Positions 5,026 through 30,387 of a stretch of 39,321 bases of DNA are shown piece after piece. The position numbers and the translations under genes are program-made. The DNA lies in the NCBI GenBank assembly GCA_964348105.1, contig CAYGBP010000008.1, positions 3,663 through 42,983 on the forward strand, given 5' to 3'. How positions within the stretch are numbered: the stretch's first letter is position 1; each line of letters starts with the position of its first letter. The DNA comes from an uncultured Nitrospirota bacterium. GTDB lineage: Bacteria > Nitrospirota > Nitrospiria > DATECO01. The notes beneath the pieces are model-generated. The model searched no databases. It saw nothing but the letters and a program-made list of their open reading frames with translations, and was not told the DNA's origin.

Positions 5026-5033
5026 GGGAAGTC

Positions 5034-6140
5034 ATGGCCAAGAAAAAAGAAAAGAAACCGAGTGTGGTCGAAAGAAAGCTGGTCGGCGTGGCGGACACGG
5101 TCGTCACCGCCGCGCAGCGGCAGAAGGATCCGACGATTTCGATCCCCATCCGCTCCCTTTCGAACGTCACTTTCAGCGAGCGCAAGGGAATGATCGAAAT
5201 GGGCAATAAGAAACAGGCCCGCACATTCTTCAATGTGGGGATGGCCAAGAAATTCATGCAGACCGTGCTGGTGGCGGACGCACTTTCCGAGCTCCAGCGC
5301 GCAAACCTCACCACCTCCCTGCGTGAAATCTATTATCGCACCAAGCACACAATCAAAGACTCGCACGAGAACACCTTCGATGCCCAGACCGAGTCGGATC
5401 CGGTGATCGAGGACCTCGAGGTGTCGCTGGAGGCGCTCCGGGAAGAGCTGCATGTGCGGGCCGAGAACGGCGGCAGCGTGGTCGGGCCGCTCATCCTGGG
5501 CGATGACGGCGACCGCGTGGACTGCACCAAGTTGGGGAAGGGGGGGTACTCCGTTCCTTCGATCGTCGAGCCGGAATTTCTGGAGATCAGGAAATGCACG
5601 GCCGATTTCGTCCTGTTGGTCGAGAAGGGAACCCAGTGGAACCGCCTCTCCGAGGATAAGTTCTGGCGCCGGTACAACTGCGTGCTGCTGACCGGCAACG
5701 GCCAGCCCCCCCGTGGCGTCCGACGCCTGGCCCGCCGGCTGCATGACGAGAAACGGCTTCCGGTCTACGTCCTGGTGGATAACGACCCCTGGGGGTATTA
5801 CATCTATTCGGTGGTCAAGCAGGGATCGATCAACCTCGCCTTCGAGAGCAAGCGGATGGCGATTCCCAAGGCGAAGTTCATCGGGCTGTCCAGCGCCGAT
5901 CCCGAGCGGTACGGTCTTCCGCGCAATGTCGGGATCAAGCTCAACGAAAAGGACATCACCCGCGCGCGCGAGCTTCTCAACTATCCCTGGTTCCAGAAAA
6001 AGGACTGGCAGAAGGAAATCAAGCGAATGCTTTCCAGCGGCCTCAAATACGAGCTGGATGCCCTCGCCAACAAGGATTTCCAATACCTGACGAAGCGGTA
6101 TCTTCCCAGAAAGCTGAAGGAAAGAGATTGGCTGGATTAG
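5034..6140 (+). CDS. top6A: DNA topoisomerase VI subunit A (Spo11-type, 5Y-CAP plus Toprim)
   Basis: 368-aa ORF starting 8 nt after the top6B stop. It has LREIYYRTKH (catalytic Tyr region), the Toprim Glu in LLVEKGTQWNRL and the DxD motif in VYVLVDNDPWGYYIYS. The C-terminus YELDALANKDFQYL is typical of the family. Confidence 0.93.
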   Translation: MAKKKEKKPSVVERKLVGVADTVVTAAQRQKDPTISIPIRSLSNVTFSERKGMIEMGNKKQARTFFNVGMAKKFMQTVLVADALSELQRANLTTSLREIYYRTKHTIKDSHENTFDAQTESDPVIEDLEVSLEALREELHVRAENGGSVVGPLILGDDGDRVDCTKLGKGGYSVPSIVEPEFLEIRKCTADFVLLVEKGTQWNRLSEDKFWRRYNCVLLTGNGQPPRGVRRLARRLHDEKRLPVYVLVDNDPWGYYIYSVVKQGSINLAFESKRMAIPKAKFIGLSSADPERYGLPRNVGIKLNEKDITRARELLNYPWFQKKDWQKEIKRMLSSGLKYELDALANKDFQYLTKRYLPRKLKERDWLD

Positions 6141-10749: not shown

Positions 10750-11028
10750 TCAAGAGACAGGGTCGATGGATACGGTTTGAGGCCGGACTGCCCGTTTTCG
10801 GCAGGCCGTGATGAAATGATTCGTGAGAATCCGGAAGATCCAGGGCCGGAAGCTGCCCTGATCCTTTAGGGAACCATTGTTGGCCCAGGCCTTGGCGACC
10901 GTATCCGCCACGAGATCCTCCGCGTCCGCGCGGTTCTTGGCAAGCCGGAGCGCCGCTCCATAGAGCTCATCCAGAAGGTCCATGACCCTTTCCTCGAATA
11001 ATTTGGTTCTCTTTTCCTCAGGGCTCAT
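10750..11028 (-). pseudogene. ECF (group 4) sigma-70 factor, region 2 fragment ended by an in-frame TGA
   Basis: It reads DLLDELYGAALRLAKNRADAEDLVADTVAKAWANNGSLKDQGSFRPWIFRILTNHFITACRKR, which covers sigma70 regions 2.1-2.4. The TGA at 10752-10750 is in the same frame as the downstream ORF starting at 10701. Together they look like one former gene interrupted by a nonsense codon. Confidence 0.75.
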
Positions 11029-14485: not shown

Positions 14486-17056
14486 TTAAGGCTTTCGCCG
14501 CTTGGTTCGGGCCGTGGGCGGGGCGTTCCAGGGATCTTCGGGCCACGGGTGCTTGGGATATCGCGCCCTGAGCTCCTTTCTGACTTCGGGATAGGTGTGC
14601 TCCCAGAATCCGCGCAGGTCCTGCGTCACCTGAATGGGGCGGCGGGCCGGAGAGAGCAGGTGCAAGGTGACGGGGACGCGTCCCCAGGCCACCCGCGGGG
14701 TGTCGGCCAGCCCGAACATCTCCTGAAGCTTTACCGACAGGACAGGCGATTCACCGGGGCGGTATTCGAGTCGATGGCTTGCGCCGCTGGGAACGACGAT
14801 GCGGCCGGGGGCGCCCTCATCGAGCCTCTGATGCAGCTTGGGATCCAGCAGGTTTCGAAGGGGGAGGAGCAAATCCAGCCGCTCGAGGTCCTGACGCCGT
14901 GCAACCCCCCCCAGAAAGGGGGCCAGCCAGTCATCCAGGCGCGCCTGCAAGGCGTCATCCGAGAGATCCGGCCAGCCCTCGTCGGGACACCAGTGCCGCA
15001 GTGAAAGCACACGCGCCTGCCACTGGCGCGCGTCGCGGGTCCAGGGCAGACCGGCAATCCCGATTCGACGAACGGCCTCCAGAACGGCGGTACGCCGCAT
15101 TTCAGGGTCCGGTTTCGCAAGTGCCGTGCTCTTGAGGATCAGGCATCCCAGGCGCTCCTCTACCCTCGCAACGATCTTGCCCTCCCGCTCATCCCACCGG
15201 ACGACTTCTGCGGTCTGCAGGCGAATCGCCTCTTCCTCCCGCAGAATATCCAGGTCCACGGCGGCTGCGAGATGGATCTTCCCTTCCGTGTCGCCGGCAT
15301 CGAGCGAGGCGGCTACGAGATAAGGCTGGCGCAGAGGGTGCTCGCGCTCGGGGAGGCGGGCGCCGCGGCCGGAGGACAGCAGGTAGCGGTAGTCCCGGGG
15401 GGCCCGCTGTTGAGCGATTCGATCGGGATATGCCCATGCCAGCAGCAGCCCGACCGATTCGGGACTGATCCGGGAGGATCCCGCCTCGATCCGGCAGAGT
15501 CGTCCTACCTGACGGGCCGTCTGCTCCACACGGGCGCAAGCAGCGGGATCGGCCCCGGCCGATTGCGCCGCCTCCCTTCCCCCCCGCCGGTACGCCCGTA
15601 ACGCCTCCAGACGGTCCGTGAAATCACAGGAGCGATGGGGTTTTGCCGCGAGAATATCGCGCTCCGAAAGCAGCGCCGCGATGTCACAGGCCAATCCGCC
15701 GAGATCCCGTTGCCTCGCCCGGTCAACCATATGCGCCAGACGAGGATGGATCGGGAGCGCGGCCATGGCCCGGCCGGCAGGCGTGATCCCGCGGGCTGCA
15801 TCCAGTGCGCCGAGTTGCATCAGGAGGTCATAGGCCTGGGCCAGCGCGGCGTGCGGCGGCGGATCGAGCCAGTGAAGCGCCGATGGATCCGCCGCGCCCC
15901 AGAGGGCCATTTCCAGGGCCAATGGGGCGAGGTCCGCGGAACGAATTTCCGGGACAGGATGAGCCATCAGGCCCCCGTGCGTCGCCACGCTCCAAAGGCG
16001 ATAGCAGACACCCGGTCCGGTGCGTCCCGCCCTGCCGGAGCGCTGCTCGGCCGATGCCCGTGAAATGCGGACCGTCGCCAAGCGGGTCAAGCCGTTCGAC
16101 GGGTCGAACCTGGGTTGTCGTGCCAGTCCGGAATCGATCACGACGCCGACTCCCTCGATCGTCAGGCTGGTCTCGGCAATCGGCGTGGCCAGCACAACCC
16201 TGCGGCCCACACCGCCGGAGGGTCGGATCGCGCGGGTTTGCGATTCCCATGGCAGATCGCCGTATAGCGGCAGAATCTCAAGCCCGCGGGCGGACAAGGG
16301 CTTCAATAGCTGCCGAGTCCTACGGATCTCCCAGGCCCCCGGCAGGAAGGCCAGGATGTTTCCGGAATCCTGATCGAGCGCATGCCGGACGGCCTGTTGC
16401 ATGATCTGCGGCAGCCGTTCGATTAGATCGACGGGGTCTTTTTCGGAATGTCTTATGTCTACCGGAAAACTCCTGCCCGGACTGGTGAGTACCGGCGCGT
16501 CATCCAGAAGCGCGGCGACGGCCGCGCCATCCAGGGTGGCGGACATCACCAGGACCTTGAGATTCAGGCCCAGCACCCGCCGGGAGTTTAGTAAAAGGGC
16601 GAGCGCCAGATCGGAATGCAGGTGCCGCTCATGAAACTCATCGAAGATGACCAGGCCGATGCCTTCCAGACCGGGATCGGACTGCAGACGGCGCGTGAGA
16701 ATCCCTTCCGTCAGCACCTCGATCCGCGTCTTGCGCGAGACCTTGGATTCAAACCGAATGCGAAATCCGACAGTTTCTCCGATCGGCTCTCTTAGAAGAT
16801 CGGACATCCGGGCGGCAGCGGCCCGCGCGGCCAGCCGGCGAGGCTCCAGGATCAATATGCCGCGGTTTACGAGCCACGGCTCCTTTAGAAGGGCCAATGG
16901 AACGATCGTGGTCTTCCCCGCACCTGGCGGGGCCTGCAGGACGGCGGATGAATGCCCGCCGAGGCATTCCCGGAGTGCGGGGAGAATTTCATGGATGGGA
17001 TATTCGGACGCGTCGAAATCCTGTTCTATCGGCTGCATTGATGATGGCTCGGCCAT
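14486..17056 (-). CDS. hrpB: ATP-dependent RNA helicase HrpB (DEAH-box)
   Basis: 856 aa with motif I LQAPPGAGKTT, motif II FDEFHERH, SAT (MSATLD) and QRSGRAGR. It also has the HrpB-specific C-terminal domain. Confidence 0.92.
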   Translation of the reverse strand: MAEPSSMQPIEQDFDASEYPIHEILPALRECLGGHSSAVLQAPPGAGKTTIVPLALLKEPWLVNRGILILEPRRLAARAAAARMSDLLREPIGETVGFRIRFESKVSRKTRIEVLTEGILTRRLQSDPGLEGIGLVIFDEFHERHLHSDLALALLLNSRRVLGLNLKVLVMSATLDGAAVAALLDDAPVLTSPGRSFPVDIRHSEKDPVDLIERLPQIMQQAVRHALDQDSGNILAFLPGAWEIRRTRQLLKPLSARGLEILPLYGDLPWESQTRAIRPSGGVGRRVVLATPIAETSLTIEGVGVVIDSGLARQPRFDPSNGLTRLATVRISRASAEQRSGRAGRTGPGVCYRLWSVATHGGLMAHPVPEIRSADLAPLALEMALWGAADPSALHWLDPPPHAALAQAYDLLMQLGALDAARGITPAGRAMAALPIHPRLAHMVDRARQRDLGGLACDIAALLSERDILAAKPHRSCDFTDRLEALRAYRRGGREAAQSAGADPAACARVEQTARQVGRLCRIEAGSSRISPESVGLLLAWAYPDRIAQQRAPRDYRYLLSSGRGARLPEREHPLRQPYLVAASLDAGDTEGKIHLAAAVDLDILREEEAIRLQTAEVVRWDEREGKIVARVEERLGCLILKSTALAKPDPEMRRTAVLEAVRRIGIAGLPWTRDARQWQARVLSLRHWCPDEGWPDLSDDALQARLDDWLAPFLGGVARRQDLERLDLLLPLRNLLDPKLHQRLDEGAPGRIVVPSGASHRLEYRPGESPVLSVKLQEMFGLADTPRVAWGRVPVTLHLLSPARRPIQVTQDLRGFWEHTYPEVRKELRARYPKHPWPEDPWNAPPTARTKRRKP

Positions 17057-17162: not shown

Positions 17163-18224
17163 TTGACGTTTCATGAATTTGAGGCTAACCTTTGGGTTGT
17201 CTTCAATTCCTGGTTTTCTCCGCAGCGGGGTGTCGCCATCGGTTTCCCATCGGTCATTACGTCTCCCAAATGGGGCATTTTGACGCTCGCCCTGTTCTTT
17301 CTGCCGGGGTGCACGGACCGGGGGGATTCGGCAGCCGCGCGGGAAAACGAGGGAACCCCCCTTTCCCAGAAAATCGACATCGTTCCCTTCCTGGATTCCA
17401 AGCGGCTTTTCCTTCGCTCGGACGTTGCCCTCGTGGCTGACAGCAGGGACGGGAGCATTCTATACGAAAGGAAGGCCGATATTCGCAGGCCGATCGCCTC
17501 CCTCACGAAGCTGATGACCGCCATGGTCATCTTGGACAAGGGTCTACCGATGAATGAAATCATTGCGATCACGAAGGCCGATCGCGACCGATTGCGGGGT
17601 TCGGGGTCCAGGCTCAGCTTCGGAAGTTGGCTGACGCGCGAGGATCTCATCAGAATCACGCTGGCGGGTTCGGACAATCGTGCCGCGGCCGCCCTGGGTC
17701 GGACTTACCCGGGCGGTACGAAGGCATTCGTGGCGGCGATGAATGACACGGCTGCGCGGCTGGAGATGCAGAGATCGGTCTTCGAAGATCCCGCGGGGCT
17801 GCGTCGCGGAAACCTTTCGACCGCCAGGGACCTGTCCATTCTGGCAAGGGCAGCCTACCGCTATCCGTTGATCCGGGAGGCGACCACCGCCGGGCAGGGT
17901 CTGGTGGTCGATCAGCAAAAGGGTCGGGCCATTGAATTCATGAATACCAACCGACTGGTTCGAAGCGCGATTTGGAACATTTCCTTGGGCAAGACCGGCT
18001 ATATTTCGGAAGCCGGACATTGCCTTCTGATGCGGGCCGAGGTCGCCGGCCGTCCGCTGATCATGGTTCTGCTCAACTCGTGGGGGGAGTTGAGTAAGTT
18101 CGGGGATGCCAACCGGATCCGAAAATGGCTTGAGCAGGCCCACGATCGAGCCCTTGAAGCTGTGGCCTCTCCAGATGAAGCCGCCGATTCCATATCGGCG
18201 CAGCCATCGGCGTTGGGTGAATAG
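17163..18224 (+). CDS. D-alanyl-D-alanine endopeptidase/carboxypeptidase (peptidase S11, PbpG-like)
   Basis: It has SxxK (IASLTKLMT), SxN (GSDNRAA) and KTG (GKTGYIS). A lipobox-like FLPGC lies at about residue 49. The TTG start at 17163 is uncertain. Confidence 0.85.
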   Translation: MTFHEFEANLWVVFNSWFSPQRGVAIGFPSVITSPKWGILTLALFFLPGCTDRGDSAAARENEGTPLSQKIDIVPFLDSKRLFLRSDVALVADSRDGSILYERKADIRRPIASLTKLMTAMVILDKGLPMNEIIAITKADRDRLRGSGSRLSFGSWLTREDLIRITLAGSDNRAAAALGRTYPGGTKAFVAAMNDTAARLEMQRSVFEDPAGLRRGNLSTARDLSILARAAYRYPLIREATTAGQGLVVDQQKGRAIEFMNTNRLVRSAIWNISLGKTGYISEAGHCLLMRAEVAGRPLIMVLLNSWGELSKFGDANRIRKWLEQAHDRALEAVASPDEAADSISAQPSALGE

Positions 18225-18388
18225 CATTTCGGAAATTAGAGGTCCGGAGCGCGTGGCTTGAACCTTTCCCTCGCCCCGTCAGATTAACAACACCTTCCGA
18301 ACCCGACATCGATTCTTCGTAACGGATCGGGGGCTCCCGCCATGCGCTTTCTGACCTGGACAAGGCCCGGCGGGGCTAATGAACGCCT

Positions 18389-18583
18389 TCAGGGTGATGG
18401 GGATTCCAGGTCCCGCCCTTTGACGGTCTTTCGGCCGTCCGCCTTGGCCCGTTCGATGGCCGTCATGCAGAGCTGTTCCACTTTCTGGCTCAGCGCGTCG
18501 ATCAATTCAGCCGAGGTATTAAATCCTGATTTTTCCCGGACAAACTTCTTGACCTTGGAAGTGACGACCAGAATATCGGACAT
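18389..18583 (-). CDS. Bacterial histone-fold protein (singlet, alpha3-truncated; Bd0055/HBb- and DUF1931-like)
   Basis: The 64-aa product is MSDILVVTSKVKKFVREKSGFNTSAELIDALSQKVEQLCMTAIERAKADGRKTVKGRDLESPSP. It shows helix1, loop, a long helix2 and then the GRKTV..RD L2 motif shared with archaeal histones (HMfB ...AGRKTIKAEDI). The SD AGGAGGG lies upstream. Confidence 0.75.
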   Translation of the reverse strand: MSDILVVTSKVKKFVREKSGFNTSAELIDALSQKVEQLCMTAIERAKADGRKTVKGRDLESPSP

Positions 18584-18637
18584 AGCGCCCTCCTGTTTGA
18601 GTCAGCAGAACCGATGCGTGCCCTGGTTCAGAGGCGT

Positions 18638-18667
18638 ATTATATCCAAATGCACCGGGATTGAACAA
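18638..18667 (-). promoter_or_regulatory. Strong sigma70-type promoter for the histone-fold gene
   Basis: The minus strand reads TTGTTC (18667-18662), an 18-nt spacer, then TATAAT (18643-18638). It lies about 55 nt upstream of the ATG. Confidence 0.5.
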
Positions 18668-18840
18668 GGGGAAGCCCGGATTAAACTCCAGAAAATAAAG
18701 GCGGGGACCGGCTCCCCCCTTGATGGGCCCGTGAGTCGCCCGGCAGCCGGTCAAGGCTTAGGCCCGGGTTGCCGAGACCTTGACTGTCGGCCGGAAAATT
18801 GATTAATGTATATCAGCTCCATGGGTGAGGCCCTGCGCGG

Positions 18841-19377
18841 ATGCAGCAAATGACCATCCATCCCGGTGAAGGAAAGGTTCAGCGGCGCAAATTCCTGAAG
18901 GGATTGGGTTCCCTGGGGATCGGTCTGCTGATTGGGCCACTGGCCGTTCGGGCGGTGGTGGCGGCCGAGGCCGTCCGGGCCTTTCCGGTGAGTCGGACGG
19001 AGGCCGAATGGCGCAGCATTCTCGAGCCGGAGCAGTATCGCGTTCTGCGCGAGGAATGGACCGAGCCGCCGTTTCAAAATAAATACCACGACCACAAGGA
19101 AAGAGGCATCTATCACTGCGCCGGTTGCGATCAGCCTCTTTTTTCATGGCGGCACAAGTACGACAGCCGCACCGGGTGGCCCAGTTTCTATCAACCCATG
19201 TTTTCCGACGCTGTCGGCACAAGGACCGATTGGAAACTCCTTTATCCCAGGACCGAGGTTCACTGTGCGCGCTGCGGCGGTCACCTGGGGCATATTTTCA
19301 AGGACGGGCCGGCGCCGACTTACCTGCGTTATTGCATCAATTCGGCCGCACTGATCTTCAAACCCTCGCGCGGTTGA
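18841..19377 (+). CDS. msrB: Peptide-methionine (R)-S-oxide reductase MsrB with a twin-arginine (Tat) signal peptide
   Basis: Tat motif QRRKFLKGLGSLGIGLL. The SelR domain has two CxxC zinc pairs (HCAGCDQPLF, HCARCGGHLGHIF) and the catalytic RYCINS. Confidence 0.9.
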   Translation: MQQMTIHPGEGKVQRRKFLKGLGSLGIGLLIGPLAVRAVVAAEAVRAFPVSRTEAEWRSILEPEQYRVLREEWTEPPFQNKYHDHKERGIYHCAGCDQPLFSWRHKYDSRTGWPSFYQPMFSDAVGTRTDWKLLYPRTEVHCARCGGHLGHIFKDGPAPTYLRYCINSAALIFKPSRG

Positions 19378-21137: not shown

Positions 21138-22052
21138 TCAAATATCGACCCAAATTCCAAGCGTGATGTGAAACTCCGTGTCCTGAAAGAATTCGGCCAT
21201 GGGGGGGCGGCCGCGGTAAACCTCGATTCCGACCCGGTGCATCCGGTGTCCCGTGGGTAGAAAAAGGCCGGTTTGAAAGGCGAGGTCCACCTTCCAGTCG
21301 CGCTCCTGCATCGAGGAGGCGTCAATCGCGGCGTACCATCCCAGCAGGTCGTCCCACACGACTCTCGGAAACTCGTATTCCAGTCCGGCCTGCAGCCGGC
21401 CGGGTTCCTGTAGATCTTCATTGCCCGGTTCGTATCCGATGCCCGCTTCGCCGTAGGTCCGGGAATGCGCAGATAATTTTTTGCTGACACCTAAAGCGAT
21501 CTCCCGTCGCGTATAATTGATCCGCTGACGGCCGGTTTCCTCGACAAATTCATCACCCACATGGCTGGAGAGATGCAGTGCCGAGAATTTGTAGGACCAA
21601 CCCCCATGGGTCGCGGCCGTCACGTACCATCCGAAGTTTCCGTCCCACCCGATGTTGTCCTGCTTGTTCTCCAGATCGAAATAACCGTCGAAGCCGGCCT
21701 CAAAGCTCAACTGCAGGCCCAGTTCGGGTTGATTCTCGGGGTGTCGGCGAAAGACCCCGAATCGGCCGCCGCCTTTCAGCCCGATTCGACGGTCTCCGGC
21801 GCCGGCAATATCACCATGGATCAGAGAGACGATCTGGACGCTGAACCCGACCCTTTGCGGGTCGGCGATATAGGGTTTGTACAAGTCTCCCCTGGGGAGA
21901 AGCTGGATGACATGGTCCGCCTGGGGGATCTGCAGTCTGGACGCGTCCGTTTCCTCCTCGAGGGGTCCGTGCGCGCCGGCAGTTGCGGCCAGAAGCAGCA
22001 GACAAAGGCCGCCTGCCATCTTGAAGAGCAATGGGCTCAAGGTGTTTGACAT
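21138..22052 (-). CDS. DUF1207-family outer-membrane protein (paralog 1)
   Basis: Signal peptide MSNTLSPLLFKMAGGLCLLLLAATAGAHG. The family motif is LLPRGDLYKPYIADPQRVGFS. The body is rich in beta-strands and aromatics. The track ORF extends to 22094. Confidence 0.7.
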   Translation of the reverse strand: MSNTLSPLLFKMAGGLCLLLLAATAGAHGPLEEETDASRLQIPQADHVIQLLPRGDLYKPYIADPQRVGFSVQIVSLIHGDIAGAGDRRIGLKGGGRFGVFRRHPENQPELGLQLSFEAGFDGYFDLENKQDNIGWDGNFGWYVTAATHGGWSYKFSALHLSSHVGDEFVEETGRQRINYTRREIALGVSKKLSAHSRTYGEAGIGYEPGNEDLQEPGRLQAGLEYEFPRVVWDDLLGWYAAIDASSMQERDWKVDLAFQTGLFLPTGHRMHRVGIEVYRGRPPMAEFFQDTEFHITLGIWVDI

Positions 22053-22249
22053 GATGGCGTACGATCCTCCGTATGTCGCCGATGCACGGGGCATATTCCG
22101 GTCAGCGGGTGGTGCCCGATTGCCCGATAGATTAGCCGGTTTACCGCGGGGCAGTCAATCATCTTGAGTCCGTCCGAGCACGTCTCATGGGTATTTCCGG
22201 CAAGTGCGGGAGGACATCGTTGATCGTCGGAGGAGCAGGTCGAGTTGCC

Positions 22250-23503
22250 TTAGAAATGAAACCCGCCCGAAACAAAAAAAGTGTAAGCCGTGGCCTTTAC
22301 CCGGTACCGCAGTCCAGTATTCGCATCTTTGCTTTCTCCGAAACCGTAGGTAAATTTGAAACCGAAATCCAGACGCGCGATCTCATCGATGAGGCCCGTG
22401 CCGATGGAGATTCCATAGAAATCGACGTGGTCAGCCTGCTCGACCGGTTGGGGATTCAGCACGGGTGCCGCCGTTCGACGGATTGGGATCCGGGGCGTGA
22501 TTAGTTGCTCGACCCCCAGGGCGCCGTTGAAGACCGGGTCGAATTCGACCTGATGGGTGAAATCGGCAAAATCGCCCGAATGGTGATAGGAAAGGTCCGC
22601 CGACAGGGTGGTGCCCGGCCAAGGACGGAACGATACTCCGGCGGTCATTCCCAAGGGACGTCTGGCCGACTCCTTCCGGGTCCCTTCCGTAAAGGTGCGC
22701 GTGAAAGATCCGGTGACGCCGTCGAAGAGATAGGATCGGTCCTGATAATCGATTTCCTGGCGAAGAAAGGCCGGCGTTCTGATCACGAAGCCGACGGCAT
22801 AGATGTCGGAGGGCCGGTAGAGGAGCCCGACCTGTCCAAATCCTCCGTGTGTGGTGGTGTCGCGCCGCTTAAGCTCTTCGAGCTGGATCGTGGGGGTTTG
22901 AATTCCGAAATAGACGGTCTGGTCCAGCTGGAACTTTTCGTACCAATAGTAGGCAGTCAGCCCGACCATCAATCCCGAATAGGGCTCAAAAGCAACCGAC
23001 GGCCCGATCATGTAGACCTCCTGCTTCCCGGAAAAATCGGCGATGATCGAATCCCAGACGAAACCTACGGCCGTGACGCCGCCGAAACGGTTGGTGGAAT
23101 CGAAATGCGTATTGGCCGGGACGATCACCGACACCCCCGCCCAGGCGTTTCGAACCCGCTTGACGGCTGCCCAGGAGCTGGGGAAAAAGGTCTCGCCTGT
23201 AATCTCCAGGTCATGTCCGAAAAGCCTATTCTTGATCGTAAGGGATTGGAGCTCGAAAGCGTTTGCTGAGAGCGAGAAGGTGGGTTTCTCCAGTTGGGCA
23301 AGTCCTGCCGGGTTGTAGTAGGCCGCTGTGGGATCGTCGGCCACGGCGGTGAATGCCCCGCCCATCTGGGCCGCGCGTCCCCCCGGCCATACGTCGAAAT
23401 ACCTTACCGGTACCGCGTGAGCCATAGCCGGGGCCAGGATCAGGAGCGCGAGGCAGAAAAGCCATAGCCTCAATTGATTCGGATGTTGAGGAACCAACGG
23501 CAT
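22250..23503 (-). CDS. Outer-membrane transport protein of the OMPP1/FadL/TodX family
   Basis: 417 aa with a signal peptide ending PAMAHA. It has AAYYNPAGLA (the FadL NPA motif) and ends in a beta-barrel terminal signature, SGGFHF. Confidence 0.85.
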   Translation of the reverse strand: MPLVPQHPNQLRLWLFCLALLILAPAMAHAVPVRYFDVWPGGRAAQMGGAFTAVADDPTAAYYNPAGLAQLEKPTFSLSANAFELQSLTIKNRLFGHDLEITGETFFPSSWAAVKRVRNAWAGVSVIVPANTHFDSTNRFGGVTAVGFVWDSIIADFSGKQEVYMIGPSVAFEPYSGLMVGLTAYYWYEKFQLDQTVYFGIQTPTIQLEELKRRDTTTHGGFGQVGLLYRPSDIYAVGFVIRTPAFLRQEIDYQDRSYLFDGVTGSFTRTFTEGTRKESARRPLGMTAGVSFRPWPGTTLSADLSYHHSGDFADFTHQVEFDPVFNGALGVEQLITPRIPIRRTAAPVLNPQPVEQADHVDFYGISIGTGLIDEIARLDFGFKFTYGFGESKDANTGLRYRVKATAYTFFVSGGFHF

Positions 23504-24673: not shown

Positions 24674-24702
24674 TTTACACGGGCATGGAGAAACATTAGA
24701 AT
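24674..24702 (+). promoter_or_regulatory. Candidate sigma70 promoter for DUF1207 paralog 2
   Basis: TTTACA (24674-24679), a 17-nt spacer, then TAGAAT (24697-24702). If it is used, the true start codon must lie downstream of the track ATG at 24701. Confidence 0.4.
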
Positions 24703-25810
24703 GGTCACGATTTTGCGCGGGAAACCTTGCCGAAGAAGAAGCGGCATATGGGGTATCACCGAAAGGGTAGTGTGTTTCTATTTAACCCGTCGGCTCGGTG
24801 TGGATGATTCGGGCAAATGGCTTCCTTTGGGAAAAAATAAGTCGATACGATTCAATTCCTGCGGCGCATTCAGCAAGAGTTGTTTGGCGGTATGGGCTGC
24901 GTTCTTGCTAAACGCCGGCATTGCCAATGGCCAGGAACCCTCGGAGAGTGTCCGCCAGCCCCATGACTGCCGGTATAAGTCCGAGTTTCCCGCCTCTCTT
25001 GCCGCTTCCGCCGGGAATCTAGACCGGCAGGTATTTCCAAACGGCGACCTCTTCCGGCCATTGATCGCCGATCCTAAACAACCCCAGTTTGTCATCAGCC
25101 GGCAACGCGTAAAGCCCAATCAGGGGGATGATTTCGTCGGGGCTTGGGTGGCCTACGGCGAAAATTTTGGGATCTACCGGGGGCGTCTACGGGGGCCAGG
25201 CGTTTGTAACGGATGGCAGATGAACATCAATGGAGGCGTTTTCGCTCAATTCAATGCGAGCGCGCCCTCCTCGGATTTGATCAATGCCGACTATGTGATC
25301 GGTTTCCCCCTCACCTTCCGGAAAAATGATTTTTCGGCCCGGTTAAGACTTTATCATCAAAGCTCTCACCTGGGGGACGAGTTTCTTCTCGGGTCGCCGG
25401 GCCTTCCACGCATCAACCTAAGTTTCGAGGAGATGGAATTTCTCATGTCGTATGAATGGCGTTACTTTCGGGTCTACGGCGGCGTCGGATACCTCGTCCG
25501 GCGGGAGCCTGAGCTCGACCGATTCCGAGCCCAATACGGGACCGAGTTGCGTTGGCCGATCCATCGGTGGTTCTATGAGCGCTTTGTGCCTTACCCGCTC
25601 TTCTGGGTGATGGGGGGTGATTTTAAGCAGTACCAGCAGCATGATTACGATTTGGATTACAGCCTCAAAGCGGGATTCGTCCTGGTGAACAACCTGTCGG
25701 ATCGCCGACTCAAAATCTTTCTTAATTTTTACAATGGCTTCAACCCCTTTGGACAATTCTACGACCAGGAACTCACTTCTTTTGGCTTTGAAATCAATTT
25801 CGGTTTCTGA
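24701..25810 (+). CDS. DUF1207-family outer-membrane protein (paralog 2); start uncertain
   Basis: The family motif is VFPNGDLFRPLIADPKQPQFV and the protein ends with a C-terminal aromatic (INFGF). The signal peptide (KSCLAVWAAFLLNAGIANG/QEP) begins only about residue 45. In-frame GTG 24800 or TTG 24827 are therefore more likely starts than ATG 24701. Confidence 0.7.
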   Translation: MVTILRGKPCRRRSGIWGITERVVCFYLTRRLGVDDSGKWLPLGKNKSIRFNSCGAFSKSCLAVWAAFLLNAGIANGQEPSESVRQPHDCRYKSEFPASLAASAGNLDRQVFPNGDLFRPLIADPKQPQFVISRQRVKPNQGDDFVGAWVAYGENFGIYRGRLRGPGVCNGWQMNINGGVFAQFNASAPSSDLINADYVIGFPLTFRKNDFSARLRLYHQSSHLGDEFLLGSPGLPRINLSFEEMEFLMSYEWRYFRVYGGVGYLVRREPELDRFRAQYGTELRWPIHRWFYERFVPYPLFWVMGGDFKQYQQHDYDLDYSLKAGFVLVNNLSDRRLKIFLNFYNGFNPFGQFYDQELTSFGFEINFGF

Positions 25811-26384: not shown

Positions 26385-27008
26385 CTATGCTGAGAACCTT
26401 CTTCGGAGGGCAGCCATTCCCACCAACCCTGAGCCGAGTAGCAGAAGCGTGCCCGGCTCAGGCACTAGGGCCGCGCCCCCGAAAATTGCCGCATGGGTGC
26501 AACCCCCGGTACACAGATTGGGGCGGTCAATACCGCTTTGTCCCTGGAGCCCCAATAATTGGACCGCAATGGTGTGTGTACCGTAAGTCAGTCCGCTGAC
26601 GACCAGACTCTGATGGCCGAGGTTATACAAATCGTAATCGCTCAAAACCGTCGCGCCGTCCACGAGAAAGTTCGCGCGGCCATCGTTGCCATTGCCATCC
26701 ATCATGAAACTAACCGCCGTACTGGCAACCGTGAACGTTGTCGATCCGGTCAATCCCGCCCCGGTTAAAAGCCACAATTGGCTGGTGCTTCCAGAGTGAC
26801 TTCCCGTTCCGGATACCGTCCAGTCCCCCGTTGATCCAGTCGTGGAATCATAGAAGGCATCTCTGTATTCCGATATCGAGTACCCCCCCACGGAAGTCAG
26901 TGCATCGCCGCTTTCAGGGATCCACTGGACCGTTAAGGCGCTTACCGATGCGGAAACCGAAAAGAACGCAACCATCGCCAACGGAATAATTCGAAATAGC
27001 TTCTTCAT
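26385..27008 (-). CDS. PEP-CTERM sorting-domain secreted protein
   Basis: Signal peptide MKKLFRIIPLAMVAFFSVSASVSA. The C-terminus VPEPGTLLLLGSGLVGMAALRRRFSA shows the PEP motif, a TM segment and a basic tail. A strong SD (AAGGAGGA) lies upstream. Confidence 0.85.
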   Translation of the reverse strand: MKKLFRIIPLAMVAFFSVSASVSALTVQWIPESGDALTSVGGYSISEYRDAFYDSTTGSTGDWTVSGTGSHSGSTSQLWLLTGAGLTGSTTFTVASTAVSFMMDGNGNDGRANFLVDGATVLSDYDLYNLGHQSLVVSGLTYGTHTIAVQLLGLQGQSGIDRPNLCTGGCTHAAIFGGAALVPEPGTLLLLGSGLVGMAALRRRFSA

Positions 27009-27520: not shown

Positions 27521-28099
27521 GTGCTGCAGATCCGTATCCATGGGCGCGGAGGGCAGGGCGTCGTGATCGCGGCAGAGATCCTGGCGCTGGCGGCCTTCAG
27601 GGACGGGAAGTACGGCCAGGGCTTTCCGAGCTTCGGGTCCGAACGCAAAGGGGCTCCCGTCACAGCGTTCTGCCGAATCGGCTCTCAGGAAATCCGAAGC
27701 CGGGAGCCTGTCGTCCAGCCGAATGTCGTCATTATCCAGGACCCCACGCTGTTGAATCGAAGCGATCTGTTCACCGGACTGGACGCCTCCGGATTCATAT
27801 TAATCAACTCCACGAAGACTTTTCAGGAGCTGGGTGTCAGCAGTCTGATCGGGGAGTTTTCGGCAGGTCATGTTTGCACGGTTCCCGCCAGCGAAATTGC
27901 CCTTGAGCATCTGGGCCGGCCACTTCCCAACGCGGTCTTGCTGGGCGGGTTTGCCGCCCTGACCGGGGCGTTAACACTCGAATCGGTCAAAGCGGCCATA
28001 CGAGAAAGGTTCCCCGGTTCGGTGGGAGAAAAAAACAGCGCGGCGGCTCAGGCGGCCTTCGATTATGTGATCTCCCATGCGACGGCTCAGGCGGCCTGA
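27521..28099 (+). CDS. porG: 2-oxoacid (pyruvate-type):ferredoxin oxidoreductase, gamma subunit
   Basis: 192 aa with a GTG start. IRIHGRGGQGVVIAAEILALAA is the typical gamma-subunit N-terminus. Confidence 0.85.
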   Translation: MLQIRIHGRGGQGVVIAAEILALAAFRDGKYGQGFPSFGSERKGAPVTAFCRIGSQEIRSREPVVQPNVVIIQDPTLLNRSDLFTGLDASGFILINSTKTFQELGVSSLIGEFSAGHVCTVPASEIALEHLGRPLPNAVLLGGFAALTGALTLESVKAAIRERFPGSVGEKNSAAAQAAFDYVISHATAQAA

Positions 28100-28123
28100 G
28101 CCTGACCTATTTTGGGGCGTGTC

Positions 28124-29377
28124 ATGTTGAGACAAATGGAAGGATCCCAGGCGGTTGCTGCGGCTGTTTCGGCCTGTCGACCGGAGGTCATATCCTGTTA
28201 TCCGATCACACCGCAGACGCACATTGTGGAAACACTTTCGGCGATGGTGAAGAGGGGGGATCTTGGCCCCTGCCAGTTTATCAATGCCGAGTCGGAATTT
28301 GGAGCCTTGAGCCTGCTGATCGGAGCGTCTGCCGCGGGGGCCCGAACCTACACGGCCACCAGCAGTCAGGGTCTTCTGTTTATGACCGAAGCGGTCTACA
28401 ATGCCTCCGGCCTGGGGCTTCCCATCGTCATGACGATCGGCAATCGCGCCATCGGAGCGCCGATCAATATCTGGAACGACCATTCTGATAGCATGTCTAT
28501 GCGGGATGCCGGTTGGATTCAGCTTTACGCGGAAAACAATCAGGAGGCGGCGGATCTGCATCTTCAGGCCTTTCGCCTGGCGGAGGAACTCAGCTGTCCG
28601 GTCATGGTCTGTATGGATGGTTACATTCTGACCCATGCGTTTGAGCCGGTGGATCTCCCAAGCCGGGAACAGGCCGACGCCTATTTGCCGCCTTACAAAC
28701 CAGCCCAGGTTCTGGATCCGGCGGATCCAATTACCATCGGAGCGATGGTAGGTCCGGAGGCCTTTTCGGAGGTGCGTTATCTGGCTCACCACAAACAACT
28801 TCGGGCCCTGAAGCGGATTCCGGTCCTGTCGGCCGAATTCAGGAGGCAGTTCGGTCGGGAATCGGGAGGGCTGCTTAATACCTATCGCGTTGACGGTGCC
28901 CAGACCGTCATCATCGCCCTGGGGTCGGTAATCGGCACCATCAAGGATGTGGTGGATCAACTGCGCGAGGAGAACCTGCCCGTGGGGTGCATAAAGGTGG
29001 TTTCCTATCGCCCCTTTCCATCGGAGGCGCTTCGTTCGGCGATCGGGGATGCGAAACGGGTGATTGTGGTGGAAAAGGATCTGGCGGTCGGTAGGGGCGG
29101 GATCGTTTCGAGCGATGTCAAGATGGCCTTCCGTAGCCATCCTCCGACCGTTCAGACCGTCATTGCCGGTTTAGGCGGAAGGGCCATTTCAATGGCGTCA
29201 TTGAAGGCGATGGCAGAGCGGGCCATCTCGGGGGAGCTCGAGGAGCCACATTTTTTGGACCTGAACTGGGAAATCATCCGGAAGGAACTCGCTCGAGTGA
29301 ATACAAGGGGGCTATCGGGCCCGGTGACCGAAGGCATCCCGCTCGACGTTAATTCGGCCGCCTCGAAAGTCAAATAG
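28124..29377 (+). CDS. porA: 2-oxoacid:ferredoxin oxidoreductase, alpha subunit
   Basis: MLRQMEGSQAVAAAVSACRPEVISCYPITPQTHIVE is the typical alpha N-terminus. I prefer ATG 28124 over the track TTG 28112. Confidence 0.85.
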   Translation: MLRQMEGSQAVAAAVSACRPEVISCYPITPQTHIVETLSAMVKRGDLGPCQFINAESEFGALSLLIGASAAGARTYTATSSQGLLFMTEAVYNASGLGLPIVMTIGNRAIGAPINIWNDHSDSMSMRDAGWIQLYAENNQEAADLHLQAFRLAEELSCPVMVCMDGYILTHAFEPVDLPSREQADAYLPPYKPAQVLDPADPITIGAMVGPEAFSEVRYLAHHKQLRALKRIPVLSAEFRRQFGRESGGLLNTYRVDGAQTVIIALGSVIGTIKDVVDQLREENLPVGCIKVVSYRPFPSEALRSAIGDAKRVIVVEKDLAVGRGGIVSSDVKMAFRSHPPTVQTVIAGLGGRAISMASLKAMAERAISGELEEPHFLDLNWEIIRKELARVNTRGLSGPVTEGIPLDVNSAASKVK

Positions 29378-29390
29378 GAGGAGCCTGCTG

Positions 29391-30371
29391 ATGTATCAAC
29401 GCATCAAGTTCTACCAAACAGGGACCTTCACGGTGGGCAATCGGCTGCTCGATGAGGAGAACCGAACGGTTCAGGCACGTACGGACCGTATGAATTCCCT
29501 GGATTCGGGCCACCGAGCCTGCCAAGGTTGCGGGGAAGCGCTCGGGGCACGCTATGCCCTCGATGCTGCGTTGCGGGCGAGCCGCAATCAGCTGGTCGTG
29601 GTCAATGCAACCGGTTGCCTGGAGGTATTTTCGACGCCTTATCCCGAAAGTTCCTGGCGGATTCCATGGATGCATTCACTATTCGGGAATGCCCCGGCGG
29701 TGGCGAGCGGCGTGGCGGCGGCTTTGCGGGCGAAGTGCAGGCCGGATGTGCGGGTGATCGCGCAGGGCGGGGACGGCGGCACCGTGGATATTGGCTTTGG
29801 CTGTCTGTCCGGGATGTTTGAGCGCAATGACGACGTGCTCTATATCTGTTACGACAATGAGGCATACATGAATACCGGCATTCAACGGTCCGGGTCTACC
29901 CCTCCCGCGGCCCGAACCGCCACCACGCAAGCAGTGGGAAGCCAGCCCGGCAACCTTTTCGGAATCGGTAAGAATCTTCCGCGTATCGCGATGGCCCACG
30001 GGATTCCATACGTCGCGACGGCCTCTGTCGCGGACCTTCATGACCTGGAGGCCAAGGTGGCCAAAGCCACGGTGATATGCGGAGCGCGCTATATCCATGT
30101 CCACGTTCCGTGCCCGTTGGGCTGGGACCATGAACCGGCTCTGACGATCCGCGTGGCCCGGCTTGCGGTGGAATCCGGTCTTTTCCCTCTTTTCGAGGCC
30201 GAGTCGGGAACGGTTACCGGGCGTATGCCAATTCGCCGCAAGGTTCCGGTGGATGAATATCTTCGCCTGCAGGGGCGGTTCAGGCACCTTTTCAAGGATC
30301 CGCCGGACACCGAAGCGATTGCGGCGATTCAGGCGATTGCGGATAAAAATATTTCGCTTTTTGAATTGTGA
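29391..30371 (+). CDS. porB: 2-oxoacid:ferredoxin oxidoreductase, beta (TPP-binding) subunit
   Basis: It has AGGAGG upstream, the Cys motif GHRACQGCGEA, the TPP motif GGDGGTVDIGFGCL and YDNEAYMNTGIQRS. Confidence 0.88.
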   Translation: MYQRIKFYQTGTFTVGNRLLDEENRTVQARTDRMNSLDSGHRACQGCGEALGARYALDAALRASRNQLVVVNATGCLEVFSTPYPESSWRIPWMHSLFGNAPAVASGVAAALRAKCRPDVRVIAQGGDGGTVDIGFGCLSGMFERNDDVLYICYDNEAYMNTGIQRSGSTPPAARTATTQAVGSQPGNLFGIGKNLPRIAMAHGIPYVATASVADLHDLEAKVAKATVICGARYIHVHVPCPLGWDHEPALTIRVARLAVESGLFPLFEAESGTVTGRMPIRRKVPVDEYLRLQGRFRHLFKDPPDTEAIAAIQAIADKNISLFEL

Positions 30372-30387
30372 GACAAGAGAGACGAGC

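What the first reader, a model, noticed from the sequence alone, without database searches (positions are those of the whole stretch)
18389..18667. 64-aa bacterial histone-fold protein (Bd0055/HBb-like) with a near-consensus promoter
Seen: the small ORF has a histone-fold layout, with a short helix, a loop, a long central helix and the GRKTVKGRDL loop-2 motif. It then ends, so alpha3 is truncated. A strong SD and TTGTTC-18-TATAAT lie upstream.

Known: this closely resembles, from memory, the singlet bacterial histones described in Bdellovibrio and Leptospira and the DUF1931 family. Those are abundant nucleoid proteins with an unconventional DNA-binding mode.

Inference: this organism probably uses a histone as a major nucleoid protein.
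Basis: partly seen in the sequence, partly recalled or inferred. Interest (0 to 1): 0.7.

Follow-up and report, generated by a model that had tools for sequence, protein, structure and literature searches.

The report
HBb-type bacterial histone in Nitrospirota
This small gene really does encode a bacterial histone of the kind recently solved in Bdellovibrio (HBb/Bd0055), here in a Nitrospirota genome; it is a clear new member of a family already described, not a new kind of protein.

Summary
Window 18389..18583 (minus strand) encodes a 64-aa protein. It aligns without gaps over residues 1-59 with the crystallised Bdellovibrio histone HBb/Bd0055 (63% identity; phmmer E 6e-20 against PDB 8FVX/8CMP). 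It passes Pfam's histone-fold threshold. Its AlphaFold model (pLDDT 87) has HBb structures as best PDB matches (TM about 0.8).

All 12 HBb DNA-contact residues are kept, with K16R the only change. The RD clamp and the dimer-core hydrophobic residues are also kept. Alpha2 is 4 residues shorter than in archaeal histones, and alpha3 is a single turn followed by a short ESPSP tail.

The gene is under purifying selection. It belongs to a clade made up only of Nitrospirota sequences. It stands alone, with a perfect AGGAGG ribosome-binding site and a -10 TATAAT box whose position is conserved in relatives. The -35 box matches only 3 of 6, so "near-consensus promoter" is overstated.

It is not a DUF1931 protein and not a Leptospira-type (face-to-face) histone. 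A Nitrospirae homologue is already listed in Hocher et al. 2023.

Most likely it is a homodimeric, sequence-nonspecific DNA-bending or DNA-coating nucleoid protein. Its abundance is inferred, not shown.

Side lead: archaeal-type topoisomerase VI genes lie 12 kb away, as Bdellovibrio also has.

The parts
18389..18583 (-). Coding sequence (64 aa plus stop) of an HBb/Bd0055-type singlet histone
   Evidence: ORF list. Pfam PF00808 scores above its gathering score. PDB phmmer gives E 6e-20 to 8FVX/8CMP. It is 63% identical to HBb, ungapped over residues 1-59. The AF2 model has pLDDT 87 and its top Foldseek hits are HBb. Substitutions show a third-codon-position excess of 580/337/1770.
18407..18436 (-). 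Loop L2 / alpha3 motif GRKTVKGRDL. It contains the RD clamp (R51-D58) and the DNA-contact residues K52, T53 and R57.
   Evidence: Translation. Residue-by-residue comparison with the HBb contacts reported in PMC11317129. R51, T53, R57 and D58 are invariant in 115 homologues.
18392..18406 (-). C-terminal tail ESPSP (residues 60-64). It is low-complexity and predicted disordered. It replaces the conserved hydrophobic IxIDH(L/I) end of the Bdellovibrio proteins.
   Evidence: Translation. The last block has pLDDT 54. Tail comparison across 115 homologues.
18589..18594 (-). Shine-Dalgarno AGGAGG, 5 nt upstream of the ATG
   Evidence: Sequence. A purine-rich GGAG-type SD is present in the same place in all aligned relatives. 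Only 5 of 40 putative genes in the window have a full AGGAGG.
18638..18643 (-). -10 box TATAAT (perfect consensus)
   Evidence: Sequence. It is one of only 4 TATAAT in the 39-kb window. It is positionally conserved in orthologue loci: 8 of 13 have a TATAAT within 150 nt upstream of the ATG, against about 3% of background windows.
18662..18667 (-). Putative -35 box TTGTTC (3 of 6 matches to TTGACA), 18-nt spacer
   Evidence: Sequence. It falls below the scan's threshold. Relatives carry better -35 boxes such as TTGACA, TTGACC and TTGACG.
18584..18631 (-). Inferred 5' untranslated leader of about 48 nt, assuming transcription starts about 7 nt after the -10 box
   Evidence: This is an inference from the promoter geometry. 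No Rfam family matches it.

Best explanation
The gene encodes a bacterial "dimer-type" alpha3-truncated histone, orthologous in kind to HBb/Bd0055 of Bdellovibrio bacteriovorus, in a Nitrospirota (probably Nitrospiraceae) genome.

Two 7-kDa chains most likely pair head-to-tail through their antiparallel alpha2 helices to form a histone-fold homodimer. [quoted passage not shown] The contact surfaces would be the paired L1-L2 loops (N22, T23, S24, A25 / K52, T53, R57) and the first turn of alpha1 (T8, S9, K10, K12).

It would not build archaeal-type tetramers or hypernucleosomes. It would bend DNA locally and, at high occupancy, coat it. These are the two behaviours reported in vitro for HBb.

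The gene is transcribed on its own from a sigma-70-type promoter and translated from a strong ribosome-binding site. This fits an abundant nucleoid-associated protein.

Shown here: the gene is real and conserved, it has the histone fold, it belongs to the HBb sequence family, and the contact, clamp and core residues are conserved.

Inferred: dimerisation, DNA binding and bending, and abundance.
For: Sequence and family:
- phmmer against the PDB gives E 6e-20 to HBb/Bd0055 (8FVX, 8CMP, 9EZZ, 9F0E), aligned over 1-59 with no gap. BLASTP gives 63% identity and 80% positives.
- Pfam CBFD_NFYB_HMF is above its gathering score.

Structure:
- The AF2 model has pLDDT 87 with alpha1 2-19, alpha2 25-48 and alpha3 56-58.
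- The five best Foldseek PDB matches are all HBb (TM 0.77-0.84, rmsd about 2 A).

Residue conservation against HBb (against PMC11317129 read):
- DNA contacts T8, S9, K10, K12, N22, T23, S24, A25, K52, T53 and R57 are identical, and K16 is R.
- The clamp residues D49, R51 and D58 are identical.
- The dimer core V11, L31 and L38 is identical, with I35V and I59L.

Selection and phylogeny:
- The codon-position substitution pattern shows purifying selection.
- The antisense 118-aa ORF is broken by stop codons in 5 of 10 relatives.
- In an NJ tree the 11 named Nitrospirota sequences and the window form an exclusive clade, separate from 67 Bdellovibrionota sequences.

Expression signals and genomic setting:
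- The -10 box and the SD are conserved in position among relatives.
- The gene has no conserved neighbours, which fits a stand-alone housekeeping gene.
- Tandem fusions of two HBb-like folds exist in the protein library, showing that the fold works in pairs.
- There is no phage, bacterial-plasmid or defence-system affiliation.
Against: - No experiment or omics data for this organism was available, so abundance and nucleoid association are inferred.
- The homodimer could not be modelled.
- The C-terminus differs from HBb. ESPSP replaces VIDHL, so I61 and the terminal hydrophobic residues are missing.
- Position 45 is R, where HBb has S. This is the equivalent of the R48 used for tetramerisation in face-to-face histones, so the oligomeric state is not certain.
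- The -35 box is weak, and no intrinsic terminator was found.
- The two published in-vitro binding modes for HBb, filament and bending, disagree. The exact mode therefore cannot be transferred with confidence.
Confidence: 0.85

Rival explanations
1. It is an HBb-type histone but a minor or conditional DNA-binding protein, for example stress- or phase-specific or a local regulator. In that case the chromatin of this organism is organised mainly by HU/IHF-type proteins, not by the histone.
For: - The distribution within Nitrospirota looks patchy. Only 10 Nitrospirota species representatives appear among the best 80 genome hits.
- No named Nitrospira species appears among the 120 listed homologues or in Hocher's histone table.
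- The neighbourhood is not conserved.
- The -35 box is weak.
- B. bacteriovorus itself also keeps HU (PMC12701072).
Against: - There is a perfect AGGAGG SD and a perfect, positionally conserved -10 box.
- Purifying selection is strong.
Confidence: 0.3
2. It behaves like a face-to-face (HLp/HTkC-type) histone: a stable torus-shaped tetramer that wraps about 60 bp of DNA.
For: - It shares the alpha3-truncated architecture of that subfamily.
- R45 aligns with the tetramer-interface arginine (R48 of the FtF profile; HLp R49).
- HLp and HTkC are the next-best structural matches.
Against: - Similarity is far weaker than to HBb: E 5e-7 against 6e-20, and 36-44% against 61-63% identity in Foldseek.
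- The second signature residue, N52 of the FtF profile, is D49 here, as in HBb, where it salt-bridges R51.
- K52 (RKT) is present, whereas the FtF profile lacks a strongly conserved basic residue there.
- In FtF histones the interface arginine salt-bridges a carboxyl group at residue 55, one residue after the clamp aspartate (D54 in D4GZE0), which appears to be the chain's C-terminus. The window protein has six more residues after the equivalent aspartate, D58 (LESPSP).
Confidence: 0.05
3. The gene does not belong to this Nitrospirota genome. It would be a binning or assembly contaminant, or a very recent transfer from Bdellovibrionota.
For: It is about 63-69% identical to Bdellovibrionota proteins. 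The gene neighbourhood is not shared with any relative.
Against: - It lies in the middle of a single contig with uniform G+C. The local value is 0.57, against 0.54-0.65 elsewhere.
- The same contig carries Topo VI-A that is 86-92% identical to Nitrospiraceae/Nitrospira proteins, and HrpB whose closest named relatives are Nitrospirota.
- The nearest histone relatives (73-87% identity) are all from Nitrospirota/Nitrospiria MAGs and form an exclusive clade.
- No transposase or integrase lies nearby.
Confidence: 0.03
4. The minus-strand ORF is a chance ORF and the real gene is the 118-aa plus-strand ORF 18342..18698 that overlaps it.
For: The plus-strand ORF is longer, and a naive longest-ORF gene caller picks it.
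Against: - Substitutions among relatives concentrate at the third codon position of the minus-strand frame (580/337/1770).
- The plus-strand frame is interrupted by stop codons in 5 of 10 relatives.
- Only the minus-strand product has homologues, a Pfam hit and a confident fold.
Confidence: 0.01

Closest known systems
HBb / Bd0055 of Bdellovibrio bacteriovorus HD100 (PDB 8FVX, 8FW7, 8CMP, 9EZZ, 9F0E; Hocher et al. 2023, PMC10627809; Hu et al. 2024, PMC11317129)
   Same: - Both are 64 aa, and the two align without gaps over residues 1-59 at 63% identity.
- Both have the histone fold with a shortened alpha2 and a one-turn alpha3.
- The S9-K10 motif, the RKT loop, the RD clamp plus D49, all DNA-contact residues (K16R only) and the dimer-core residues are the same.
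- Both lack the HMfB-type tetramerisation histidine (A48 in both).
- Both are stand-alone genes.
   Different: - The C-terminus is ESPSP (disordered, Pro/Ser-rich) where HBb has the conserved hydrophobic VIDHL.
- Position 45 is R, not S.
- There is an extra basic residue, K55, in L2. The calculated pI is 9.3 against 8.85.
- The host is a Nitrospirota bacterium, a phylum of mostly free-living chemolithoautotrophs, not a predator.
- No biochemical or abundance data exist.
Nitrospirae bacterium RIFCSPHIGHO2_01_FULL_66_17 singlet histone OGW62712.1 (listed in Supplementary Table 1 of Hocher et al. 2023)
   Same: It belongs to the same Nitrospirota clade (about 76% identical over 59 aa) and has the same motifs. 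This shows that the kind was already catalogued in this phylum.
   Different: It is 60 aa and ends ...ARDVV with no Pro/Ser tail. It was only catalogued and is not discussed: the main texts of the 2023 and 2024 surveys do not mention Nitrospirota.
HLp of Leptospira perolatii / L. interrogans LA_2458 and HTkC (face-to-face alpha3 histones; PDB 9QT0, 9F2C; PMC12701072, PMC11390915)
   Same: Alpha3-truncated histone fold, shortened alpha2, RD clamp and conserved alpha1 lysines. An R sits at the position of the interface arginine.
   Different: These are tetrameric tori that wrap about 60 bp. They have the signature N (the window has D49). Their profile has no strongly conserved basic residue next to the clamp arginine, where the window has K52. 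The chain ends one residue after the clamp aspartate, and bacterial members often carry basic N-terminal tails. Similarity to the window protein is only E 5e-7.
Archaeal nucleosomal histones HMfA/HMfB/HTkA (PDB 1A7W, 5T5K)
   Same: Histone fold, RKT...D L2 motif and head-to-tail dimer.
   Different: - The window's alpha2 is 4 residues shorter.
- Its alpha3 is about 3 residues against about 10.
- There is no tetramer four-helix-bundle residue set.
- The NCBIfam archaeal-histone model scores 23.9 bits against a cut-off of 50.
DUF1931 / Aq_328-type pseudodimeric histone-fold proteins (PF09123)
   Same: There is a distant histone-fold relationship. NCBI also labels some singlet alpha3 histones "DUF1931 domain-containing".
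   Different: These are doublets of two folds in one chain, and they lack the DNA-binding signature residues (PMC12701072). The window protein scores below the Pfam gathering score and matches only positions 18-53 of the 138-position model.

Membership tests
Bacterial dimer histones (HBb/Bd0055 subfamily of alpha3-truncated histones; Schwab et al. 2024) | Sequence clusters with HBb. This category is defined by sequence clustering, not by a predicted assembly. | tested here: met
   phmmer gives E 6e-20 to HBb chains against 5e-7 to the nearest other subfamily. Identity is 63%, ungapped. It groups with the Nitrospirota and Bdellovibrionota HBb-like proteins.
Bacterial dimer histones (HBb/Bd0055 subfamily of alpha3-truncated histones; Schwab et al. 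2024) | Histone fold with alpha3 reduced to 3-4 residues and alpha2 4-5 residues shorter than in nucleosomal histones | tested here: met
   The AF2 model has alpha2 at 25-48 and alpha3 at 56-58. A 4-residue gap appears in alpha2 when aligned to HmvA, and 51 residues are spread over 55 positions of the archaeal profile. The top Foldseek hits are HBb.
Bacterial dimer histones (HBb/Bd0055 subfamily of alpha3-truncated histones; Schwab et al. 2024) | RKTxxxxD motif with the RD clamp, and the bacterial S9-K10 motif plus alpha1 lysines | tested here: met
   R51, K52, T53 and D58 are present, together with D49, S9, K10, K12 and K13; position 16 is R. These columns are invariant or nearly invariant in 115 homologues.
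Bacterial dimer histones (HBb/Bd0055 subfamily of alpha3-truncated histones; Schwab et al. 2024) | Lacks the face-to-face tetramer residues (R48 and N52 of the FtF profile) | tested here: inconclusive
   The N52 equivalent is D49, as in HBb, so it is absent. The R48 equivalent is R45, where HBb has S45 and relatives have R or K. One of the two residues is therefore present.
Bacterial dimer histones (HBb/Bd0055 subfamily of alpha3-truncated histones; Schwab et al. 2024) | The largest confident oligomer is a dimer | not testable with these tools
The dimer-core residues V11, L31, V35, L38 and L59 are conserved.
Bacterial dimer histones (HBb/Bd0055 subfamily of alpha3-truncated histones; Schwab et al. 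2024) | Non-specific DNA binding or bending; an abundant nucleoid protein | not testable with these tools
   There are only indirect signs: conserved contact residues, a strong SD and a conserved -10 box.
Pfam PF00808 CBFD_NFYB_HMF (histone-fold) | Score at or above the curated gathering score | tested here: met
   23.4 bits against 21.4, E 7.3e-5, residues 27-60.
Face-to-face (FtF) histones (HLp, HTkC) | Conserved interface N (profile position 52), no strongly conserved basic residue after the clamp R, and a chain ending one residue after the clamp aspartate so that its terminal carboxyl group can pair with the interface arginine | tested here: not met
   The window has D49, not N. K52 is present. 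Six residues follow D58. Sequence similarity to HLp is only E 5e-7.
DUF1931 (PF09123) pseudodimeric histone-fold proteins | Score at or above the gathering score; two histone folds in one chain | tested here: not met
   19.8 bits against a gathering score of 21.8. The match covers profile positions 18-53 of 138. The protein is a single 64-aa fold.
Archaeal nucleosomal histones (NCBIfam NF043032; HMfB type) | Model cut-off, full-length alpha2 and alpha3, and tetramerisation residues | tested here: not met
   23.9 bits against a cut-off of 50. Alpha2 is shortened and alpha3 is truncated. A48 stands where HMfB has the tetramer histidine.

The most novel reading that the evidence does not exclude
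HBb-type or other alpha3 histones and the archaeal-type topoisomerase VI may be linked in bacteria, as parts of a shared "archaeal-like" chromosome toolkit.

For:
- This contig carries Topo VI B and A (3004..6140) 12 kb from the histone gene.
- B. bacteriovorus also has both.
- At least 4 of the 17 Topo VI-bearing bacterial species listed by Allen et al. 2024 appear in Hocher's table of histone-fold proteins: B. bacteriovorus, Vulgatibacter incomptus, Sedimentisphaera cyanobacteriorum and Anaerohalosphaera lusitana. The background is 1.86% of bacterial genomes.
- Neither paper mentions the other feature.

Against:
- The count is not corrected for phylogeny.
- Allen's bacterial table does not list Topo VI for Leptospira, Elusimicrobia or Chlamydiae, which have histones.
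- No named Nitrospira species, a genus that has Topo VI, turned up with a histone.
Probability: 0.15. Interest if true: 0.6.

Novelty: new member of a known kind. Interest (0 to 1): 0.3.

Why it matters
Bacterial histones were shown to be real chromatin proteins only in 2023-2025, and only two have been characterised: HBb, a dimer, and HLp, a tetramer.

A well-conserved HBb-type clade in Nitrospirota extends the dimer-type family beyond predatory Bdellovibrionota. Nitrospirota is a phylum of environmentally important chemolithoautotrophs, and a Ca. Manganitrophus genome is among the carriers.

The clade also offers natural sequence variants that could help decide between the two proposed HBb binding modes. 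These variants include the loss of the hydrophobic C-terminal IxIDHL, the gain of a Pro/Ser tail, R45 and K55.

In itself the finding is expected. A Nitrospirae homologue is already in the published catalogue, and the mechanism can be transferred by homology.

Tried and rejected
- **Synteny, to date the acquisition.**
  - tblastn of the window's neighbours (HrpB, S11 peptidase, MsrB, FMN reductase, Topo VI) against 84 histone loci gave no hit.
  - A metagenome scan with the adjacent S11 peptidase found only relatives at 60% identity or less, and none carried a histone or MsrB nearby.
  - Look-ups based on HrpB and on Topo VI-A showed relatives with partly similar gene content but no histone.
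  - No conclusion on gain or loss was possible.
- **Source record.** The window's own proteins are in the protein collection (NCBI, contig of 42,983 bp). Taxonomy therefore rests on the nearest named relatives.
- **Intrinsic terminator.** None was found downstream. The fold of the 3' region is no more stable than shuffled sequence (z 0.42).
- **RNA elements.** There is no Rfam family and no tRNA in the window.
- **Mobile or defence origin.**
  - No phage record matched.
  - Plasmid matches were all below 60% identity and almost all on haloarchaeal plasmids; those listed are annotated DUF1931 or DNA-binding protein.
  - Only 4 distant hits (53% identity or less) appeared in 2.9 million viral contigs.
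  - There was no significant PHROG or PADLOC hit.
- **Second histone or HU in the window.** An HBb-profile search of all six frames found only this ORF. Pfam scans of 40 other ORFs found no HU/IHF.
- **Literature on Nitrospirota histones.** Nothing was found beyond the supplementary table entry.
Full report
**The observation**

The finding's coordinates, 18389..18667, span a minus-strand gene together with its translation and transcription signals. The ORF 18389..18583 (-) encodes 64 aa: MSDILVVTSKVKKFVREKSGFNTSAELIDALSQKVEQLCMTAIERAKADGRKTVKGRDLESPSP. The open frame extends only six codons upstream of the ATG, so the start is unambiguous.

AGGAGG lies 5 nt before the ATG. TTGTTC, an 18-nt spacer and TATAAT lie at 18667..18638. 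GRKTVKGRDL is residues 50-59, and the chain ends ESPSP.

**Is the gene real?**

A longer antisense ORF (18342..18698, +, 118 aa) overlaps the gene, and a naive longest-ORF caller prefers it. Among the window and ten Nitrospirota orthologues, differences by codon position in the histone frame are 580/337/1770. The antisense frame carries stop codons in 5 of 10 relatives. The minus-strand gene is therefore the one under protein-level selection.

The word-indexed search found 139 homologues. The exhaustive search found 731 50%-identity clusters at E<=1e-3, 80 of them at E<=1e-10.

**What it is**

- Pfam's histone-fold family PF00808 is hit above its curated threshold (23.4 bits against 21.4). DUF1931 is below its threshold (19.8 against 21.8) and matches only a quarter of the doublet model.
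- The NCBIfam archaeal-histone model scores 23.9 bits against a cut-off of 50.
- Against PDB sequences the best matches are the Bdellovibrio histone HBb/Bd0055 (8FVX, 8CMP and others; E 6e-20, residues 1-59 aligned without a gap). Far behind come the Leptospira face-to-face histone HLp and the archaeal HTkC (E 5e-7).
- BLASTP against HBb gives 37 of 59 identities (63%) and 80% positives.
- An AlphaFold2 model built on 115 homologues has mean pLDDT 87. It shows alpha1 2-19, alpha2 25-48, a three-residue alpha3 at 56-58 and a low-confidence tail.
- The five best Foldseek PDB matches are all HBb chains (TM 0.77-0.84, rmsd about 2 A). HLp, HTkC and then nucleosomal histones follow.
- Alpha2 is four residues shorter than in archaeal-type histones (the gap; 51 residues over 55 profile positions).

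**Mechanism by homology**

Hu et al. (PMC11317129, read) list three sets of HBb residues:
- DNA contacts from two co-crystals and molecular dynamics: T8, S9, K10, K12, K16, N22, T23, S24, A25, K52, T53 and R57.
- The RD clamp R51-D58, reinforced by D49.
- The dimer core: V11, L31, I35, L38 and I59.

In the window protein eleven of the twelve contact residues are identical and K16 is R. The three clamp residues are identical. The core is identical apart from I35V and I59L.

A48 is kept at the position where archaeal histones have the tetramerising histidine. Hocher et al. had to mutate this position (A48H, together with S45F and I61L) to make Bd0055 bring DNA ends together.

[quoted passage not shown] It would bend DNA (Hu et al.) and, at saturating density, coat it (Hocher et al.).

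Tandem fusions of two HBb-like folds exist in the protein library (P0269, P0273, P0277). This is independent evidence that the fold functions in pairs. Dimerisation, DNA binding and abundance are inferences, and a direct dimer model could not be made.

**Differences from HBb**

- The Bdellovibrio proteins end with a conserved hydrophobic I(V/I)IDH(I/L).
- Nitrospirota-type proteins mostly stop 1-4 residues after D58.
- A sub-group that includes the window protein carries 5-12-residue tails rich in Pro, Ser, Gly and Thr. Examples are ESPSP, EAPPPSE, QTPGAGPTS and QPEGAGTPTS.
- Position 45 is R, where HBb has S. Using the profile numbering in Schwab et al., this position corresponds to the interface arginine R48 of face-to-face histones.
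- The partner residue N52 is D49 here, as in HBb. K52 is present, and the chain does not end one residue after the clamp aspartate. The face-to-face signature is therefore not met.
- K55 adds a basic residue in L2. The calculated pI is 9.3 against 8.85.

**Host and phylogeny**

- The nearest histone relatives (73-87% identity) come from Nitrospirota/Nitrospiria MAGs and from the complete genome of a Candidatus Manganitrophus. Bdellovibrionota proteins are 61-69% identical.
- In an NJ tree the 11 named Nitrospirota sequences and the window form an exclusive clade.
- The same contig encodes Topo VI-A that is 86-92% identical to Nitrospiraceae/Nitrospira proteins. It also encodes an HrpB whose best relatives, at 69%, are Nitrospirota including Manganitrophaceae.
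- G+C is uniform.
- Contamination or recent transfer from Bdellovibrionota is therefore unlikely.
- There are no copies on phages or bacterial plasmids, only four distant copies in IMG/VR, and no defence-system affiliation.

**Expression signals and context**

The gene is monocistronic. It lies between a convergent S11 DD-peptidase gene (17163..18224, +) and a divergent MsrB gene (18841..19377, +).

The neighbourhood is not conserved. Relatives at 78-84% identity sit between an FAD monooxygenase and a GYD-domain gene. None of 84 histone loci contains homologues of the window's neighbours.

The promoter scores only 9 of 12 in the window. That value is reached by 8% of random 150-nt windows, and the consensus scan does not call it. 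However, a perfect TATAAT occurs upstream in 8 of 13 Nitrospirota loci, against about 3% of background windows. In six of them, the window included, it ends 51-56 nt before the ATG, and several relatives have near-perfect -35 boxes.

A full AGGAGG is found before only 5 of 40 putative genes in the window. These features fit strong constitutive expression but do not measure it. No intrinsic terminator was found.

**Comparison with what is known**

Hocher et al. 2023 showed that Bd0055 is abundant, nucleoid-associated and probably essential. Their Supplementary Table 1 already lists a Nitrospirae singlet, OGW62712.1, about 76% identical to the window protein.

Schwab et al. 2024 defined the "bacterial dimer" category by sequence clustering around HBb. 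They name Bdellovibrionota, Elusimicrobiota, Spirochaetota, Planctomycetota, Myxococcota_A and Chlamydiota as its main hosts. Nitrospirota is mentioned neither in the main text nor in the supplements held.

No paper in the library discusses Nitrospirota histones. The window protein is thus a new member of a known kind, in a phylum where the kind has been catalogued but not studied.

**Side lead**

The window also encodes both subunits of the archaeal-type topoisomerase VI (3004..5025 and 5034..6140).

Allen et al. 2024 list B. bacteriovorus and Nitrospira moscoviensis among 17 Topo VI-bearing bacterial species. At least four of those 17 appear in Hocher's histone table, against 1.86% of bacterial genomes overall.

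The association is not corrected for phylogeny and is not reciprocal. Allen's bacterial table does not list Topo VI for Leptospira, Elusimicrobia or Chlamydiae. No named Nitrospira species turned up with a histone. I record it as an idea, not a result.

**Verdict**

- Novelty: new member of a known kind.
- Interest: 0.3.

Noticed in passing
window 3004..5025 (+) and 5034..6140 (+): Both subunits of archaeal-type DNA topoisomerase VI are present: B (Topo-VIb transducer plus GHKL ATPase) and A (Spo11/Toprim). Subunit A is 86-92% identical to Nitrospiraceae/Nitrospira proteins. Topo VI is sporadic in bacteria, but it is also present in B. bacteriovorus, the model host of HBb. At least 4 of the 17 published Topo VI-bearing bacterial species also have histone-fold proteins.
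   Followed up: partly
window 18342..18698 (+): A 118-aa ORF lies antisense to the histone gene, its SD and its promoter. It is a shadow ORF: its frame is broken by stop codons in 5 of 10 relatives. A longest-ORF gene caller would mis-annotate the locus.
   Followed up: yes
window 18703..18719 (-), followed by an AT-rich tract at about 18680..18699: A terminator-like GC hairpin followed by a T-run sits just upstream of the histone promoter on the same strand, with no minus-strand gene upstream to terminate. It could be chance, since shuffles give 1.4 per kb region. It could also be an insulator, or the AT-rich tract could act as an UP-like element.
   Followed up: no
window 18841..19377 (+): The MsrB (SelR) gene has an N-terminal extension containing RRKFLKGLGSLGIGLL. 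This looks like a twin-arginine export signal and suggests a periplasmic methionine-sulfoxide reductase.
   Followed up: no
window 27521..32016 (+): A cluster encodes 2-oxoacid:ferredoxin oxidoreductase gamma, alpha and beta subunits, followed by a 617-aa GltD-like Fe-S flavoprotein. The listed start of that ORF (30163) overlaps the beta-subunit gene by about 200 nt, so its real start is probably further downstream. The cluster fits the reverse-TCA metabolism typical of Nitrospirota.
   Followed up: no
window 21138..22094 (-), 22250..23503 (-), 24701..25810 (+), 26385..27008 (-): Two DUF1207 paralogues, a FadL/UPF0164-like outer-membrane protein and a PEP-CTERM protein lie close together, possibly forming an envelope or exopolysaccharide-related island.
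   Followed up: no
window 14486..17056 (-) compared with 5034..6140 (+); loci L141, L143: Conservation along the contig is uneven. The closest Topo VI-A relatives are 92% identical, but the closest HrpB relatives are only 69% identical (Manganitrophaceae and other Nitrospirota). In one 4.6-Mb relative (L141) HrpB is flanked by MsrB, a cold-shock protein and a cupredoxin, with no histone. The region around the histone may be a variable part of the genome.
   Followed up: partly
proteins P0269, P0273, P0277, P0280, P0270: The best-scoring representatives in the exhaustive protein search are tandem doublets of two HBb-like histone folds in one chain (about 125-135 aa). One 274-aa protein has a Cys-rich N-terminal region followed by two HBb-like folds. 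These are covalent versions of the dimer.
   Followed up: partly
window 32447..33241 (+): A 264-aa protein is made almost entirely of ankyrin repeats (Ank_2, 158 bits), which is uncommon in free-living bacteria.
   Followed up: no
window 10750..11028 (-): A 92-aa ORF carries only sigma-70 region 2. It may be a truncated ECF sigma factor or a gene with a mis-called start.
   Followed up: no
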